A stretch of DNA of 64,000 nucleotides from a virus (IMGVR_UViG_3300014204_000140:1-64000); one strand, 5' to 3'. Numbered from the stretch's first letter, positions 2,303-27,649 are shown. A program made the numbers and translations. The notes: generated from the letters alone by a model not told the origin.

Positions 2303-3049
2303 TTATTTTGATTTTTGATTAATTAATATTCTATTTATTATTGAATACCAGATCATTTTAAGTGTTATAATAATCCACTTTTTAAATCCATTTTTAGTCT
2401 TTTCTTTCTGATCACCAATACTAAACTTCTTTGACTGAAGATTTAAATTTTTGATTAATTTTGGATTAGTTACTACGATATAAGGAAATATAGCAGTATC
2501 ACGTTCTTTTTCATAGTCTGTATAGTCACTAGGTATTTGTAACCATACATTTGTAAATGGAGATCTAGCATTTCCCCATTCTCCTTTTTTACAACTTTTT
2601 TTATCTGTTGTCCAGTATTTTTTAAAAGGTTTCCAGAAAACAATTTCTTTATTATCTATTTCTGTTATAGGATACTCTTTTGAAGATACAGAGTACACTA
2701 ATTTAATTCCACCTATTTCTAAGTCTGTTACTGGTACTCCTAATACAATACTAGGAGATCTTACAGATTGTAGTGTGTATTTTGTCATTTTACTATGTTT
2801 TTGAGTTTTTGAATATTTAAATCCAATTATATTTTTTAGCTTTTTATTATATTTTAATGGCCATAATATATTGTATTTTATTGGATTAAATATAGTTTTG
2901 TAATATAATCTGCAAATTAATGGATATTTCTGTAATATATAAAATATTTTTGAGTGTGTTAATATATTATATATTTCTCTATCTGTAATTTTTTTAATTG
3001 GTCTTATACAGAATATATTTAATAATTTATTTATTATTTTTTTTATCAT
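2303..3049 (-). CDS. Hypothetical protein (start likely MIKKIINK at 3049 rather than GTG 3094)
   Basis: Long ORF; C-terminal half looks globular (FWKPFKKYW, WGNARSPFTNVW). Confidence 0.6.
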   Translation of the reverse strand: MIKKIINKLLNIFCIRPIKKITDREIYNILTHSKIFYILQKYPLICRLYYKTIFNPIKYNILWPLKYNKKLKNIIGFKYSKTQKHSKMTKYTLQSVRSPSIVLGVPVTDLEIGGIKLVYSVSSKEYPITEIDNKEIVFWKPFKKYWTTDKKSCKKGEWGNARSPFTNVWLQIPSDYTDYEKERDTAIFPYIVVTNPKLIKNLNLQSKKFSIGDQKEKTKNGFKKWIIITLKMIWYSIINRILINQKSK

Positions 3050-3309
3050 AAAAAGTAAGTAGTAAAATACCACATTGTTATAAGTCAAATTCACTTCAGT
3101 TCGAAAACACTAAATTTACGATTTAGTTATGATTCATTATTTAACTTATTACTTATATAGTTTAGTAAAGTATAGACTTTATTAAAATCTGATATATTTG
3201 TGAGATATACTCTACTACTTACTATAATGTGATAGTTTATATTCTTTATAGAATGTTTATTGTATTTTAGTGTATATTTTGTTATTATTAGACCATTAGT
3301 ATTTTTCAA

Positions 3310-4535
3310 CCTAATCCCTTTCTAATAACTACATACATACTTATACATTTATATGCAAAATTACTCTCAAATGAATTTTTATTCAGTCTATGGTATTAGA
3401 CTAACAGAGCTTATATGATGCGTAAGACTCACGCCCATTATAATTAGAATTAATTTTACTTTTCCAGAGTAAAACCTATTGTATATTAAATGTACCACGA
3501 CCATATTTCAATTTGAAATCCAGTATGGCTTACTTTCGCCGTTTATGTCATTTTGGTTCTCTTACGACTTTTACGCCCAGGTAAGATATAATATTTAAAT
3601 AATAGAATCTAATATCTAACGTCAGTATGTAAAAATAATTATTTAAAAAGATTCAGATGTTCCTTCTGGGAATCAACTTATTATACAAGTTTCATTCAAT
3701 TTGGACTTGAGGACTTTATATAACTCTTACATCATTTCATTATTATGTTAGTTGGACTTAGCACAATGTCAGCTAGTTTTTTCCATAATAACTTTCTATC
3801 AACCTTATCTTATTGGATTGTATATACTTATAATATCGAATTCTTTCAGGTTCCCTAAGTTTTTATACAAAAGGATTACTGTTCTTAATAATATTAACCT
3901 AAAGGTATAGTGTCAATCGCAGATCACCTAATTATAAGTCATAGCTTATAAGATTAAGTAGATGGGCTAATATTATTTAGGAATTAGTCAATCCCCACTA
4001 CTTGTTTCTTAAATAATAGCGAGACAAGCTATATCTAAAATTTATATTTATCTAAATATGTCGATAAATACTTTAGAGATATGTTTTACTCTAAATAGTA
4101 GTCCGATAAGGCCTTTTCCATCACTCCTCTCTATCGGTTTTCTTCGACAACCTTAGTAAAGTACAATTTCGGGAATTTCACCCTATCGTTGTCATAATGT
4201 TATATATAGAAGATAATTTTAAAATATAAAATAGATAAACTTGGAGCTATAAAGTTAAACTTTATAAGAGATCTTCCGGATCTCAAATAATATTAGATAC
4301 CTAATCTAGTTTTATAATCACCTGTGATCAACTATATTGATTAGAGTGAAGAATATTAATACTCCAAGCCTATTTTATATTTTACTTGTACCGTTTAGAT
4401 CTTTTATAGGTACTAGTTTTGAATTATAAATATTATAAATAATAATACCCCAAATTTGTATAATCAAAGTATTACTATAGTATTATATAGCTACTAATTA
4501 TTTATAACATCGTTCTATAATACTTTACCGTCCAA
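3310..4535 (-). ncRNA. Large (~1.2 kb) highly structured non-coding region, candidate large ncRNA
   Basis: No ORF >=60 aa on either strand. 15-bp perfect stem 4220-4234/4370-4384 enclosing further stems; T-loop-like GGGUGAAAUUCCC (4171-4183) and GNRA hairpin GGGC-GUGA-GUCU (3425-3436) on minus strand. Some stems show G-T pairs on plus, so strand is not certain. Confidence 0.6.
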
Positions 4536-4536
4536 T

Positions 4537-6078
4537 TTAAAATTTTTGAATTCTTTCGTAACTATCCCTTGGAAATTCTGATTTCCAAATTATTACTTTT
4601 GAGATAGGTATAGATAATTTTTTGATAAAATTGTTGATAATATCTAGTACTTCTCTACTATCTGTTAATTCTGCATTTTCAACTTGGTCATAATCTATAT
4701 TTATTAACAGATATGGATTTTCATTTGGAATTAAAGATTTATATAGTACACATTCTGAAATAAAAGGAATATGTCTTAATACTTCTTCTATTCTTTTAGA
4801 TTGTGTATTATAATCAGATGTTCTGCATATAAAGTATATATTTCCATCTTTATCTTTTATTCCTAAATCGTCTAATGAAATATCTAATGGAGTATTAAAT
4901 TTTATAAGTATTCTATGTAGAATTATAATATTATCAATTACTGTAACATTTCCAGTAATTGATTTTCCAACTGATTCTAATTTAAAATTAGATGGATCAG
5001 AATAAGTTGCTATTCCACAAGTTTCTACTGTTCCGTAAGTTACAGTATATGGAAAATTTATTTTCTTTAAAAGTTTTTCCATATACAATCCTATAGAAGA
5101 ATTAAGAATTATTAATTTCTCTATATTAGGAAATAGTATAGATAATCTCTCTTTTATAATAAGATTATTTATAGATGGAATATTCTTCTGTGTAAATGGA
5201 AAATAGTATAGAAATTTCCATAATGATCTTAAATATTCTTTAGTTTTAAATGGTTCAGATTTTACAAAGTTAAAGTACAATTGAAGAAATCTATATGCAT
5301 TTAATATTATAACTGGTGGTTTATACTTTTCAATATTATATTGTATATTGTAATGTGATATAATACTTGAATTAATTATAATTCTTGTATTACTAATTAA
5401 TGGTAGTAATAATCCAATTACATAATTATATGTGAAAGTTGGATAAGAAAGATATTCAGTTTTTGATTCGAATATTTCTTTGTTTTTTAATTCCTTTAAT
5501 AAGATAAGTATTTCACTGAATGAAATTTTAATCTTTTTTAAATCATTAGGGGAATATATTATTATATCAGGTCCTATTCTCTTCATTTGGAAGTTTTTAA
5601 TAATCATTCTGTATATTTGTCGAATACTTATTTTATCTTTTACTTCTTTAGGAATTAGAGTTTGTTCTGTATTATAAGATCTAAGGTATTTAGTAGGTAT
5701 AACAATACCTCTAAATTTTAAAGATTTTATTTCTTCATCTTTTAAATCTGTTATTAAAATATTACAATTACTAACAGATAAAATATGTGATATTCTTGAA
5801 TGTGATTGTAATGAAGGTATAAGAATTATAGTACTATTATTAAATATACTACCTAAAAATGCTATTATCCATTCTATAGAATTACTAGCACATATTGCTA
5901 TATTGTTTTTTTCGAAGTTAGTATTAGTATAGTTATCATAGTTATTTAATTCTATTGATAACATAGTAGCACTTTTTATTAAATCATTATATTTAATTGA
6001 TTTTTCTTCTTGAACTGCTGCTATATCATTCCAGAAATTTCTGATATTTATTATTAGATATTTTACTAGTTTTTTCAT
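4537..6078 (-). CDS. AMP-binding (long-chain acyl-CoA synthetase-like) protein, divergent
   Basis: IAICASNSIEWIIAFLG, PYTVTYGTVETCG (YGxTE-like), SVGK, DDLGIKDKDGNIYFICR (GDLG...GR-like); P-loop replaced by IIIYSPNDLKK. Confidence 0.75.
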   Translation of the reverse strand: MKKLVKYLIINIRNFWNDIAAVQEEKSIKYNDLIKSATMLSIELNNYDNYTNTNFEKNNIAICASNSIEWIIAFLGSIFNNSTIILIPSLQSHSRISHILSVSNCNILITDLKDEEIKSLKFRGIVIPTKYLRSYNTEQTLIPKEVKDKISIRQIYRMIIKNFQMKRIGPDIIIYSPNDLKKIKISFSEILILLKELKNKEIFESKTEYLSYPTFTYNYVIGLLLPLISNTRIIINSSIISHYNIQYNIEKYKPPVIILNAYRFLQLYFNFVKSEPFKTKEYLRSLWKFLYYFPFTQKNIPSINNLIIKERLSILFPNIEKLIILNSSIGLYMEKLLKKINFPYTVTYGTVETCGIATYSDPSNFKLESVGKSITGNVTVIDNIIILHRILIKFNTPLDISLDDLGIKDKDGNIYFICRTSDYNTQSKRIEEVLRHIPFISECVLYKSLIPNENPYLLINIDYDQVENAELTDSREVLDIINNFIKKLSIPISKVIIWKSEFPRDSYERIQKF

Positions 6079-26185: not shown

Positions 26186-27649
26186 ATGCAAGATAGTGTA
26201 TTAAATGATCTTCAACTATTTAAGACCAGATGGTTTTCTGATCTAGTAGATGAGAACATGCTTTCAAACGCGTTAATGACTGAACCTCATAAGGTGTTTA
26301 CAGTATTGTCTTACATTTTTGGTCGTTATGAGAATAGTTCAATTGACTTCTTAACAAGTGGTATGGGTAAAACTATTATCACTGAAAATCGTCAATATGA
26401 ATGGCCTGTAATGATTGAAAGTGACAAAGCAATTTCGATTAAACAAGCTAAGTGGCAAGGTGCTACTATAACTTCTGATTTAACTCCTGGTATTAACGGA
26501 ACTCCTATTCAATTGTGGTTAGGAGAAAAATGGTTTGGTCCTGGTGCCATTCTCGAATTCGATGATAAAGAATTCCAAGTAAGAGTAATGGGTACTCCTT
26601 ATCAAGATGGTAATGATTATGTTTATACAGTAGTTTGTGCTGATGGACAACCGTCTTCTTTTATACCACCTACATTGTTAGTAGCTGGTGCTCAAGTCAG
26701 TAGGTTAGGTTCTGCTTATGAAGAGTATTCAGAAGAAGCAGATATTGTCAATTATCAAGCTCCATTTAAACTTAGAAATCATCTAACAACTATGCGTCTT
26801 TCTTATGATATAACTGGATCTGCTGTTGCTTCTGTAATGGTTATTGCAACGCGTGATCCTAAAAGTAAGAAGACTTCATATTTATGGTCAGATTATCAAG
26901 AATGGATTGCTTTACGGCAATGGTATCGGAGTCTTGATCGTCAATTAGTTTATTCTAAGTTTAATGCTAACGCTGATGGTACGACTGATTTAATTGGTAC
27001 AAGCGGACGTCCTGTGTATATTGGTGCTGGTCTATTACAACAGATTGCTCCATCCAATCGTAAGACTTATACTACTCTTACTATTGATATATTAGAAGAT
27101 TTCTTATTTGATCTTTCCTATAATGTCCTTGGTACTAACGATCGTAAGTTCGTAGCACTAGTTGGTGAAATGGGAATGAAAGAATTAGATAGAGTTCTTA
27201 GAGCAAAAGCAACGGGATATCAATTAGTTGATACTCATTTTGTCAGTGGAACTGGTCAGAATCTTACCTTACAAGGTCAGTTTACGACTTATAAAATGCT
27301 CAATGGTATTGAATTAACATTGAAACATTTTCCATTATATGACAATATAGTATATAATCGTAAGTTGCATCCTGTAACTGGTAAACCGTTAGAATCCTAT
27401 CGTTTTACCTTCCTTGATTTTGGTAACCGTGATGGTGAATCCAATGTTATGAAGGTTGTCCGTAAAGGACGTGAAATGGTACAGTGGTATACTGGTGGTT
27501 CAGTTGCTCCTGGACAAGGATTTGCTACATCAAAGAATACTCTTCGTTCTAATGCAAAAGATGGATATTCAGTTCATTTCTTGTCAGAACAAGGTATTAT
27601 GATTAAGGACCCAACTAGTTCCGGTGAGCTCATTTGCGATGCTCAATAG
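26186..27649 (+). CDS. Major capsid protein (crAss-like)
   Basis: 487 aa; SDLVDENMLSNAL, YEW, LRNHLTTMRLSYDITGSA, IGAGLLQQI; synteny. Confidence 0.9.
   Translation: MQDSVLNDLQLFKTRWFSDLVDENMLSNALMTEPHKVFTVLSYIFGRYENSSIDFLTSGMGKTIITENRQYEWPVMIESDKAISIKQAKWQGATITSDLTPGINGTPIQLWLGEKWFGPGAILEFDDKEFQVRVMGTPYQDGNDYVYTVVCADGQPSSFIPPTLLVAGAQVSRLGSAYEEYSEEADIVNYQAPFKLRNHLTTMRLSYDITGSAVASVMVIATRDPKSKKTSYLWSDYQEWIALRQWYRSLDRQLVYSKFNANADGTTDLIGTSGRPVYIGAGLLQQIAPSNRKTYTTLTIDILEDFLFDLSYNVLGTNDRKFVALVGEMGMKELDRVLRAKATGYQLVDTHFVSGTGQNLTLQGQFTTYKMLNGIELTLKHFPLYDNIVYNRKLHPVTGKPLESYRFTFLDFGNRDGESNVMKVVRKGREMVQWYTGGSVAPGQGFATSKNTLRSNAKDGYSVHFLSEQGIMIKDPTSSGELICDAQ

What the first reader, a model, noticed from the sequence alone, without database searches (positions are those of the whole stretch)
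3310..4535. ~1.2-kb ORF-free, densely base-paired region: candidate large phage ncRNA
Seen: the largest non-coding gap in an otherwise compact genome, filled with stems. Examples: 15-bp perfect 4220-34/4370-84 plus CTTGGAG/CTCCAAG enclosing GAGATC/GATCTC; GACAAC/GTTGTC enclosing a T-loop-like GGGUGAAAUUCCC; CCGATA/TATCGG; TATTTATC/GATAAATA; TTTTACT/AGTAAAA; AGTCTA/TAGACT; GNRA-capped GGGC-GUGA-GUCU and GC-GAAA-GU on the minus strand. Known: T-loops and GNRA loops mark tertiary-folded RNAs, and large phage ncRNAs of unknown function exist (GOLLD, ROOL). I could not recognise group I, group II, tmRNA or RNase P cores. Inference: a large structured RNA, possibly a new class.
Basis: partly seen in the sequence, partly recalled or inferred. 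Interest (0 to 1): 0.8.

Follow-up and report, generated by a model that had tools for sequence, protein, structure and literature searches.

The report
New giant structured RNA in crAss-like phages
The 1.5-kb gene-free stretch encodes a previously undescribed, very large folded RNA. It is shared by a small clade of environmental crAss-like phages and carries a sequence signature suggesting that two copies of the RNA pair with each other.

Summary
The gap is real and larger than reported: window 3050-4536, 1,487 nt, the largest ORF-free stretch of this 95-kb crAss-like phage genome. It holds no ORF under any stop reassignment, shows no codon periodicity, and gives no Rfam hit even at E<=10.

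Folding energy does not single it out. Its z of -4.5 lies within the range of equal-length coding controls (-3.5 to -6.1).

Comparison does. At least 12 divergent contigs carry a homologous 1.2-1.5 kb gap directly after a diverged ANL-fold gene (20-52% identity). Three domains tested with tools show strong compensatory covariation: 88-95% of cells paired, 37 of 46 pairs with double changes, and 0/500 shuffles reaching the observed covariation score.

G-U versus A-C counts, A-rich conserved loops and gene orientation favour the minus strand as sense.

One 5' hairpin loop holds a hexamer that is a perfect palindrome in all 11 sequences aligned, with eight different hexamer sequences. Adjacent bases cannot pair in cis, so this points to a symmetric intermolecular kissing contact, as reported for OLE and GOLLD.

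Verdict: a new family of very large structured phage RNA that probably self-pairs. No expression data exist, and its function is unknown.

The parts
3050..4536 (-). Whole structured-RNA locus, from the ANL-gene stop to 1 nt before the downstream ATG
   Evidence: Largest ORF-free gap. Homologous over its whole length to gaps in relatives by nhmmer (E down to 1e-229). Single copy in the genome.
4473..4522 (-). 5' terminal helix (UAUUAUAG / CUAUAGUA) within the conserved motif GCACAC.GUAAAGUAUUAUAG. Its 3' arm overlaps the next hairpin, so the two may be alternatives or a pseudoknot; this is unresolved.
   Evidence: RNAalifold on 10 sequences: 8 pairs, 5 with compensatory changes, 64/77 cells paired.
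4439..4478 (-). Hairpin with a 13-15 nt loop. The last six loop bases (4452-4457, AAAUUU) form a palindrome that covaries as a palindrome; proposed kissing-loop dimerisation site.
   Evidence: All 11 sequences aligned have a perfect palindromic hexamer at this position, with 8 different sequences. 33/33 cells are Watson-Crick, with 14 double changes against 3.9 in shuffles (0/500).
4212..4430 (-). 5' multi-helix junction closed by the long-range helix UAUAAUU (4421-4430) / AAAUUAU (4212-4222)
   Evidence: 7 pairs, 4 compensatory, 63/68 cells paired. Coordinates.
4220..4384 (-). Long arm D1. It comprises the 15-bp outer stem, CUUGGAG/CUCCAAG, and two covarying inner helices (4352-4358/4288-4294 and 4339-4347/4299-4306). 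Two small hairpins are present in the window's subgroup only.
   Evidence: 13 of 15 pairs compensatory, 92% of cells paired against 71% in shuffles (0/500), slid controls 24-38%.
4145..4194 (-). T-loop domain. Stem UGACAAC/GUUGUCG encloses the hairpin GGG-UGAAAUU-CCC (4171-4183) and is followed by the invariant GAAGAAAA.
   Evidence: 7 of 10 pairs compensatory, 95% paired against 81% in shuffles. The CM R1 built from it finds every family member.
4103..4137 (-). Hairpin CCGAUAG...CUUAUCGG with the conserved loop GGAGUGAUGGAAAA
   Evidence: Compensatory changes are visible in the alignment (CUACCG/CGGUAG, CUAGG/CCUAG, UACCA/UGGUA).
3809..3955 (-). Insertion of about 150 nt found only in the window, L002 and L006. 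It is highly conserved among them, including CUUAGGGAACCUGAAAGAA at 3841-3859.
   Evidence: Alignments. Absent from L007-L012 and L039.
3669..3806 (-). Central domain. GGUUGAUAGAAAG, then helix GUUAUUAUG/CAUAAUAAU (3784-3792/3739-3747) with loop AACUAAC, UAAUGAAAUG, helices 3712-3721/3683-3691 and 3707-3709/3697-3699, and loop AGUCCAAAU.
   Evidence: 17 of 21 pairs compensatory, 88% paired against 69% in shuffles (0/500), slid controls 26-50%.
3527..3586 (-). Helix UCUUAC-CU-GGGCG ... CGGCG-AAA-GUAAG.
   Evidence: Alignment and RNAalifold (CUUAC/GUAAG, CUUAG/CUAAG, CUUGC/GCAAG, CCUAUC/AAUAGG).
3364..3436 (-). Hairpin GGCGU...ACGC (3418-3436) and the conserved segment AAAAUUCAUUUGAGAG (3364-3379)
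3054..3223 (-). 3' domain. The outer stem AGUAAGUAGUAGAGUAU (3207-3223) / GUAUUUUACUACUUACU (3054-3070) encloses the inner stem 3206-3216/3164-3174 and the loop CAAAUAUAUCAGAU. It ends 5 nt before the downstream ATG.
   Evidence: The stem covaries: GUAAGUAGUA/UACUACUUAC in the window's subgroup becomes GUAAGCAGUA/UACUGCUUAC in L009-L012.
4537..6078 (-). Upstream ANL-fold (AMP-binding superfamily) gene, 513 aa, always directly 5' of the RNA
   Evidence: Pfam PF00501. PDB profile hits. AlphaFold2 pLDDT 79; Foldseek top hits MenE, luciferase, DltA and NRPS A domains. Synteny.
2303..3049 (-). Downstream ORFan gene (248 aa from ATG 3049)
   Evidence: ORF list, sequence. No family hit.

Best explanation
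Window 3050-4536 encodes, on the minus strand, one member of a previously undescribed family of very large structured non-coding RNAs, about 1.2-1.5 kb long. The family belongs to a clade of environmental crAss-like phages.

Shown: the region is non-coding, conserved about as well as its coding neighbours, and folds into many helices kept by compensatory substitutions. These include a T-loop hairpin domain, a long 5' arm, a central domain and a 3' domain. Highly conserved A-rich single-stranded segments lie between the helices.

Inferred, with my probabilities:
- It is transcribed with the leftward operon. The structure starts within about 15 nt of the ANL-gene stop codon and ends 5 nt before the next ATG, and no promoter or terminator is seen (about 0.7).
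- It acts as a folded RNA rather than as a mere leader (about 0.75).
- Two molecules pair through a six-base palindromic loop, as in the HIV-1 DIS and the bridging loops of OLE and GOLLD. This would give a homodimer or the seed of a larger RNA assembly (about 0.6).
- It works together with the always-adjacent, highly diverged ANL-fold protein as an RNP (about 0.3).

The biological role during infection is unknown. My best guess is an architectural or scaffolding RNA of the GOLLD/ROOL type.
For: Non-coding:
- No ORF under any stop reassignment.
- Substitutions show no codon periodicity (p 0.27-0.99), against p 0.0009-0.019 in the ANL gene.
- Only 18 of 88 indels are multiples of three.

Conserved:
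- Every homologue of the ANL protein (29-52% identity) has a 1.0-1.5 kb gene-free gap right after it.
- The gaps align over their full length at 59-72% nucleotide identity, about the same as the flanking genes.
- Members found by an RNA motif alone (L020, L036, L039) include two whose upstream ORF could be tested. Both (L036, L039) again have an ANL homologue upstream.

Structured:
- D1 arm: 13/15 pairs compensatory, 92% of cells paired.
- T-loop domain: 7/10 pairs, 95% paired.
- Central domain: 17/21 pairs, 88% paired.
- In all three, 0/500 shuffles reach the observed percentage paired or covariation score, and slid controls give 24-59% paired.
- Further covarying helices appear.

Strand:
- G-U versus A-C cells in these helices are 35:11 overall and 14:3 at internal pairs.
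- The flanking genes are on the minus strand.
- The conserved unpaired blocks are A-rich on that strand.

Self-pairing:
- Palindromic hexamer in all 11 sequences aligned, with 8 different sequences; 33/33 cells Watson-Crick.
- It is the only such six-base site in the whole alignment.
- The background rate of palindromic hexamers is 2.3% per position, giving P<=4e-8 even with +-3 nt of slop.
- The same signature is used in PMC12286853 to argue for intermolecular loops in OLE and GOLLD.

New: no Rfam hit at E<=10, and no match among 50,697 GenBank phage records.
Against: - No transcript evidence. No RNA-seq run holds the sequence, so expression, the ends of the RNA and the strand are all inferred.
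- The strand test is biased, because the structures were predicted on the minus strand. A whole-alignment RNAalifold only mildly favours minus (-101 against -93 kcal/mol).
- Folding energy is unexceptional for this genome.
- The palindrome is strictly Watson-Crick, which a DNA-level dyad would also be.
- The closing stem of the palindrome hairpin rests on single-sequence folds. The tool alignment made to test it failed.
- The family is small, about 12-18 contigs, so covariation statistics rest on 9-12 sequences. No R-scape-type significance test was available.
- Linkage to the ANL gene may be plain synteny. The whole block of neighbouring ORFans is also conserved.
Confidence: 0.82

Rival explanations
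1. The region is not an independent RNA. It is a giant structured intercistronic leader or UTR that acts in cis on the stability or translation of the ANL gene or of the downstream gene.
For: The structure begins about 15 nt after the ANL stop and its last stem ends 5 nt before the downstream ATG (5-35 nt in relatives). No terminator-like site was found, and promoter-like sites are no more frequent than in shuffles. No conserved Bacteroidota-type -7 box lies upstream on the sense strand.
Against: At 1.2-1.5 kb with more than 15 conserved helices, a T-loop and an intermolecular palindromic loop, it is far beyond any known bacterial cis-regulator (my knowledge). Conservation is strongest far from either gene. 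Only the 3' domain is positioned to affect translation. Partly compatible with the main explanation.
Confidence: 0.12
2. The functional RNA is transcribed from the plus strand, antisense to the operon.
For: Watson-Crick covariation is strand-symmetric. The plus-strand fold also has z -3.6 and an alifold energy of -93 against -101. A Bacteroidota-type -7 box (TAnnTTTG) lies on the plus strand at 3193-3200 and is kept in the window's subgroup.
Against: G-U exceeds A-C 35:11 on the minus strand, and 14:3 at internal pairs. The -7 box is absent from the second subgroup. The conserved single-stranded blocks would be U-rich rather than A-rich. The T-loop consensus reads only on the minus strand.
Confidence: 0.04
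3. A DNA-level element (replication origin, packaging site or an array of protein-binding dyads) rather than an RNA.
For: It is the largest non-coding stretch of the genome. It holds a strictly Watson-Crick palindrome and several inverted repeats.
Against: Dozens of nested helices are kept by compensatory changes with frequent G-U pairs. That is not expected of duplex DNA sites. No iterons or direct repeats were noticed in the alignments. A dyad bound by a protein would keep its sequence, whereas this hexamer takes eight different sequences.
Confidence: 0.02
4. A known RNA class (group I or II intron, RNase P RNA, tmRNA, GOLLD, ROOL, OLE, FMN riboswitch) too diverged for its covariance model, or a decayed protein gene.
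For: GGUGAAAUUCC...UAAGG...GAAGAAAA resembles the 3' half of FMN riboswitches, which the same DNA pattern pulled out of metagenomes. T-loops also occur in RNase P (my knowledge).
Against: Zero Rfam matches at E<=10 with permissive filters. ARAGORN finds nothing here. The element does not interrupt a gene and holds no RT or homing-endonuclease ORF. There is no codon periodicity, and no ORF is called in the gap of any relative except one 61-aa antisense call.
Confidence: 0.02

Closest known systems
GOLLD RNA (Rfam RF01998)
   Same: A very large, ornate, phage-borne non-coding RNA defined by covariation and of unknown function. GOLLD forms homo-oligomers through kissing loops, one of which covaries as a palindrome (PMC12286853). 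That is the same signature seen here at 4452-4457.
   Different: No sequence or structure match. GOLLD is about 800 nt, lies near tRNA islands, and occurs in Lactobacillales phages and aquatic metagenomes (my knowledge). This RNA is 1.2-1.5 kb, sits 6.3 kb from the only tRNA gene, always follows an ANL-fold gene, and occurs in crAss-like phages. Only one palindromic contact was found, which predicts a dimer rather than a cage.
ROOL RNA (Rfam RF03087)
   Same: A large phage or prophage RNA with no known protein partner. It assembles into an RNA-only complex.
   Different: No Rfam match. ROOL is roughly 580 nt (my knowledge), with a different host range and genomic context.
OLE RNA (Rfam RF01071)
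   Same: A large structured RNA that dimerises through a symmetric palindromic loop and works with dedicated partner proteins.
   Different: OLE is cellular (extremophilic Bacillota), about 610 nt, and linked to the oap genes (my knowledge). No match here.
HIV-1 dimerisation initiation site (DIS) kissing loop
   Same: A six-base self-complementary sequence in a hairpin loop. GUGCAC, the very hexamer of L039, is one of the two natural HIV-1 DIS variants (my knowledge). This is resemblance of mechanism only.
   Different: Unrelated RNA and biology. The loop here is 13-15 nt with the palindrome at its 3' end. Dimerisation is untested.
FMN riboswitch (RF00050), T-loop hairpin motif only
   Same: GGUGAAAUUCC hairpin followed by UAAAG and GAUGAAA-like segments. 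The same search pattern retrieved true FMN riboswitches.
   Different: No Rfam hit. The surrounding helices differ. There are no flavin genes nearby. This is a shared structural motif, not homology.

Membership tests
GOLLD / ROOL / OLE (Rfam families) | Significant match to the family covariance model | tested here: not met
   cmscan at gathering thresholds over the window and at E<=10 over 3000-4700: no match.
GOLLD / ROOL | Location next to tRNA genes or tRNA islands in phages and prophages (typical, not obligatory) | tested here: not met
   The only tRNA gene in the window (tRNA-Lys, 10889-10962) is 6.3 kb away. In all relatives the neighbour is an ANL-fold gene.
Group I / group II self-splicing introns | Match to the intron models; insertion within a host gene; for many members an intron-encoded ORF | tested here: not met
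   No Rfam hit. The flanking ANL gene is full-length, with the two-domain ANL fold. No ORF in the gap.
RNase P RNA / tmRNA | Match to Rfam models or ARAGORN; a tag ORF with tRNA-like ends for tmRNA | tested here: not met
FMN riboswitch | Six-helix junction model RF00050; position upstream of flavin genes | tested here: not met
   No hit. Only the T-loop hairpin and two short segments resemble it.
Large ornate structured ncRNA (operational class: over 500 nt, many covarying helices, conserved unpaired bases, non-coding) | Length, absence of coding signal, multiple helices supported by compensatory changes | tested here: met
   1,487 nt. Non-coding. Covariation.
Homo-oligomerising RNAs with symmetric kissing loops | A loop sequence that stays self-complementary while its bases change | tested here: met
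Homo-oligomerising RNAs with symmetric kissing loops | Physical dimer or multimer formation | not testable with these tools
   Needs native gel, SEC-MALS or cryo-EM.
Any expressed ncRNA | A transcript of defined strand and ends | tested here: inconclusive
   No RNA run holds the sequence. The holders are landfill and groundwater DNA metagenomes, plus one sediment run with only a 5% share.

The most novel reading that the evidence does not exclude
The RNA is the core of a new phage ribonucleoprotein. It is a dimeric RNA larger than 1.2 kb, either a ribozyme or the substrate or cofactor of the adjacent ANL-fold protein, whose adenylation motifs are degenerate. It would carry out a chemistry or a host-takeover function not known for any phage RNA. 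It would also be the largest non-ribosomal, non-intron structured RNA class in the bacterial and phage world.
Probability: 0.2. Interest if true: 0.92.

Novelty: new variant of a known kind. Interest (0 to 1): 0.82.

Why it matters
New classes of very large structured RNA are rare; as far as I know only a handful have been described (GOLLD, ROOL, OLE, HEARO, raiA). Each has opened new RNA biology, most recently RNA-only nanocages.

This family is about 1.5 times the size of GOLLD. It lies in Crassvirales, an abundant and poorly understood phage order. It has a fixed protein neighbour of a fold never linked to RNA, as far as I know. It also carries a computational signature of self-association that can be tested directly on a native gel or by cryo-EM.

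The finding also shows that folding z-scores are useless in AT-rich phage genomes, whereas synteny-guided covariation works.

Tried and rejected
- Rfam at gathering thresholds and at E<=10: nothing in the gap.
- blastn of the gap and tblastn of the ANL protein against 50,697 GenBank phage records: no match.
- Folding z-scores against dinucleotide shuffles do not discriminate the gap from coding controls. One run timed out.
- Pattern CTTAGGGAACCTGAAAGAA in IMG/VR gave one chance hit inside an ORF (L003).
- The T-loop pattern in metagenomes gave 31 stretches. The new family members among them are L020, L036 and L039. L026 is another record of L002's phage. The rest are FMN riboswitches or chance.
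- The same pattern in 185,579 species genomes gave 33 stretches, none confirmed by CM R1.
- A second motif pattern in IMG/VR found only a known contig.
- CM R1 on the three nearest GenBank crAss-like phages (Suoliviridae cr118_1, cr52_1, cr114_1) gave only noise-level hits. The positive control scored E=1e-15.
- Sequencing-run search: no RNA holder listed.
- GTAAAGTAT as a repeated phage promoter: rejected, with only 7 scattered copies in the genome.
- Bacteroidota -33/-7 promoter scan: no conserved sense-strand promoter.
- ESM Atlas for the 917-aa upstream protein: no usable hit. PHROGs, Pfam and NCBIfam for the neighbours: none, apart from weak sub-threshold NCBIfam matches and the Pfam hit on the ANL protein itself.
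- mafft-qinsi was unavailable.
- fold_alignment of the palindrome hairpin failed because of misalignment.
- Earlier-findings look-ups returned nothing.
- Literature searches found no description of this RNA.

Full report
WHAT IS THERE

The window is the first 64 kb of a single 95,073-bp contig with about 27% G+C. Terminase, portal and major capsid proteins match the crAss-type PHROGs. The capsid protein is 66% identical to that of crAss-like phage cr118_1, which belongs to Suoliviridae, Crassvirales.

Genes from 1 to about 14,400 run on the minus strand. Between the 513-aa gene at 4537-6078 and the next gene lies the largest ORF-free stretch of the genome. No reading frame opens when TAG, TGA or TAA is read as a residue.

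The ORF finder starts the downstream gene at GTG 3094. However, a conserved stem (3054-3070) ends 5 nt before ATG 3049, and relatives have their start codon 5-35 nt after the same stem. I therefore take the non-coding stretch as 3050-4536, which is 1,487 nt.

Base-pair density as such is not exceptional, though.
- The MFE z-score of 3310-4535 is -4.5 on the minus strand and -3.6 on the plus strand.
- Three coding stretches of the same length give -6.1, -3.5 and -5.7.
- 150-nt windows in the gap are no more stable than flanking coding windows (mean z -0.93 against -1.25, p=0.81).

In this AT-rich genome, dinucleotide-shuffle z-scores say nothing either way.

COMPARATIVE EVIDENCE

The upstream protein has 17 homologues at 29-52% identity among 5.8 billion proteins. 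In all 12 contigs looked up, a gene-free gap of 1.0-1.5 kb follows it directly. One contig ends inside the gap. IMG/VR adds a near-identical contig and a 47%-identity relative.

The gaps are homologous along their whole length. nhmmer gives E from 1e-152 to 1e-229 for the full-length relatives. Blocks of 15-25 invariant bases are separated by variable or inserted segments. Overall nucleotide identity of the gap to four relatives is 59-72%, about the same as for the flanking coding genes.

Substitutions show no three-base periodicity in the gap (p 0.27-0.99), while they do in the ANL gene (p 0.0009-0.019). Only 18 of 88 indels are multiples of three. The region is therefore under selection, but not as a protein.

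A degenerate pattern taken from the most conserved RNA motif was scanned through metagenome contigs. nhmmer and a covariance model (R1) confirmed three new members: L020, L036 and L039. The other hits are FMN riboswitches, which share the GGUGAAAUUCC T-loop hairpin, or chance matches. L036 and L039 were found without reference to any protein. Both again have an ANL homologue immediately upstream (hhalign probabilities 98.9 and 99.9), in L036 at only about 20% identity.

The RNA was not found in the following places:
- 185,579 species-representative genomes.
- 50,697 GenBank phage records.
- The three closest described crAss-like phages, while the positive control scored E=1e-15.

Holders of the window's own sequence are landfill and groundwater DNA metagenomes.

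STRUCTURE

| Domain | Alignment | Sequences | Pairs with compensatory change | Cells paired: observed / shuffled | Slid controls |
|---|---|---|---|---|---|
| Long 5' arm D1 | A4 | 10 | 13 of 15 | 92% / 71% | 24-38% |
| T-loop domain | A5 | 12 | 7 of 10 | 95% / 81% | 31-53% |
| Central domain | A6 | 9 | 17 of 21 | 88% / 69% | 26-50% |

In each domain, 0 of 500 shuffles reached the observed percentage paired or covariation score.

RNAalifold on the whole alignment and on further segments adds several more helices:
- A 5' terminal helix.
- A long-range helix closing a 5' junction.
- The CUUAC/GUAAG helix.
- A GCG/CGC hairpin.
- A 3' domain whose closing stem switches from GUAAGUAGUA/UACUACUUAC to GUAAGCAGUA/UACUGCUUAC in the second subgroup.

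Between the helices lie nearly invariant, mostly A-rich segments: GAAGAAAA, GGUUGAUAGAAAG, AACUAAC, UAAUGAAAUG and AGUCCAAAU. A segment of about 150 nt (3809-3955) is an insertion specific to the window, L002 and L006. It is itself highly conserved among those three.

STRAND

Watson-Crick covariation cannot tell the strands apart. In the three validated domains, G-U cells outnumber A-C cells 35 to 11, and 14 to 3 at internal pairs. The caveat is that these structures were predicted on the minus strand. The unbiased whole-alignment comparison favours minus only mildly.

Three things favour the minus strand: the gene orientation, the A-rich conserved loops and the T-loop consensus. A Bacteroidota-type -7 box on the plus strand (3193-3200) is kept in the window's subgroup only and remains unexplained.

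A SELF-COMPLEMENTARY LOOP

In the 5' region a hairpin (about 4439-4478) carries a 13-15 nt loop. The last six loop bases are:

| Hexamer | Found in |
|---|---|
| AAAUUU | window, L006, L013 |
| GAAUUC | L002, L008 |
| GAGCUC | L007 |
| GCAUGC | L009 |
| AAGCUU | L010 |
| GUCGAC | L011 |
| AGUACU | L012 |
| GUGCAC | L039 |

These are eight different hexamers at the same position, and every one is a perfect palindrome. Counted as (()), 33 of 33 cells are Watson-Crick. There are 14 double changes against 3.9 +- 1.6 in shuffles (0/500), and slid controls give 18-59% paired.

Palindromic hexamers start at 2.3% of positions in these RNAs. Taking nine lineages as independent, the chance that all of them have one here is at most 4e-8, even allowing +-3 nt of slop. 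An unbiased scan of the whole alignment finds no other such six-base site.

The two central bases are neighbours and cannot pair within one chain. The simplest reading is therefore a symmetric duplex between two RNA molecules. This is the same argument used for loops of OLE and GOLLD, which cryo-EM showed to be intermolecular (PMC12286853). It is also the principle of the HIV-1 DIS (my knowledge).

Two caveats apply. The closing stem rests on single-sequence folds, because the alignment made to test it failed. A DNA dyad would also be strictly Watson-Crick, although a protein-bound dyad would be expected to keep its sequence.

THE NEIGHBOUR

The 513-aa protein has the full two-domain ANL fold. 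AlphaFold2 gives pLDDT 79 and pTM 0.74. The Foldseek top hits are MenE, luciferases, DltA and NRPS adenylation domains, at TM 0.55-0.67 and 11-14% identity. Profile hits to PDB and Pfam agree.

In the family alignment the YGxTE-like motif is invariant. The glycine-rich phosphate loop is not recognisable (consensus IIYTPNxL), and the C-terminal GK(I/V) lysine reads R. The motif definitions come from my own knowledge. This suggests an altered or lost adenylation activity, but it was not tested.

All other neighbours are ORFans. The whole block is syntenic, so adjacency alone does not prove a functional link.

CONCLUSION

This is a large structured RNA of a new family, with about 12 members held as DNA and up to 18 contigs counting those known only from gene calls. 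It is confined, as far as can be seen, to one clade of environmental crAss-like phages. It most resembles GOLLD, ROOL and OLE in kind, but is not a member of any of them.

The most concrete mechanistic prediction is homodimerisation through the palindromic loop. Expression, RNA ends, partners and biological role remain open.

Noticed in passing
window 4537-6078 (-): The ANL-fold protein family next to the RNA lacks a recognisable glycine-rich P-loop (consensus IIYTPNxL where ANL enzymes have TSGTTGxPKG). It also has R instead of the catalytic lysine in the C-terminal GK motif. It may be a pseudo-enzyme or have a changed activity.
   Followed up: partly
window 3193-3200 (+), inside the 3' domain loop CAAAUAUAUCAGAU: A perfect Bacteroidota-type -7 box (TAnnTTTG) lies on the strand antisense to the RNA. 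It is conserved in the five members of the window's subgroup but not in the second subgroup. It could be an antisense promoter or a coincidence of a conserved RNA loop.
   Followed up: partly
window 3049 versus 3094 (-): The downstream gene probably starts at ATG 3049, not at the GTG 3094 given by the ORF finder. The stretch 3054-3070 is the 3' strand of a conserved, covarying RNA stem.
   Followed up: yes
window 10889-10962 (-): A tRNA-Lys(UUU) gene, the only Rfam or ARAGORN hit in the window. It lies in a 540-nt ORF-free gap.
   Followed up: no
window 11453-11978, 12669-13165, 13430-14033, 15245-15663, 16252-16695: Several further ORF-free gaps of 420-600 nt lie around the divergent switch between the leftward and rightward gene blocks. 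They were not examined for RNAs or promoters.
   Followed up: no
L035 (Ga0228711_1002498), L021, L043: Three related metagenome contigs were pulled in by chance. Only 7-14% of their length lies in open frames of 100 codons or more, and no single stop reassignment rescues them. They are not members of this RNA family. Unexplained ORF-poor DNA.
   Followed up: partly
L079 (NC_055872.1, cr118_1) 501-2327: The major head protein of the closest GenBank phage is annotated as two CDS separated by about 480 nt. This looks like an intron or similar insertion in the capsid gene. The window's own capsid gene (26186-27649) is uninterrupted.
   Followed up: no
window 3809-3955 (-): A lineage-specific insertion of about 150 nt within the RNA. 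It is nearly invariant between phages whose ANL proteins are only 47-52% identical, and it includes the 19-nt CUUAGGGAACCUGAAAGAA. It looks like an added functional module.
   Followed up: partly
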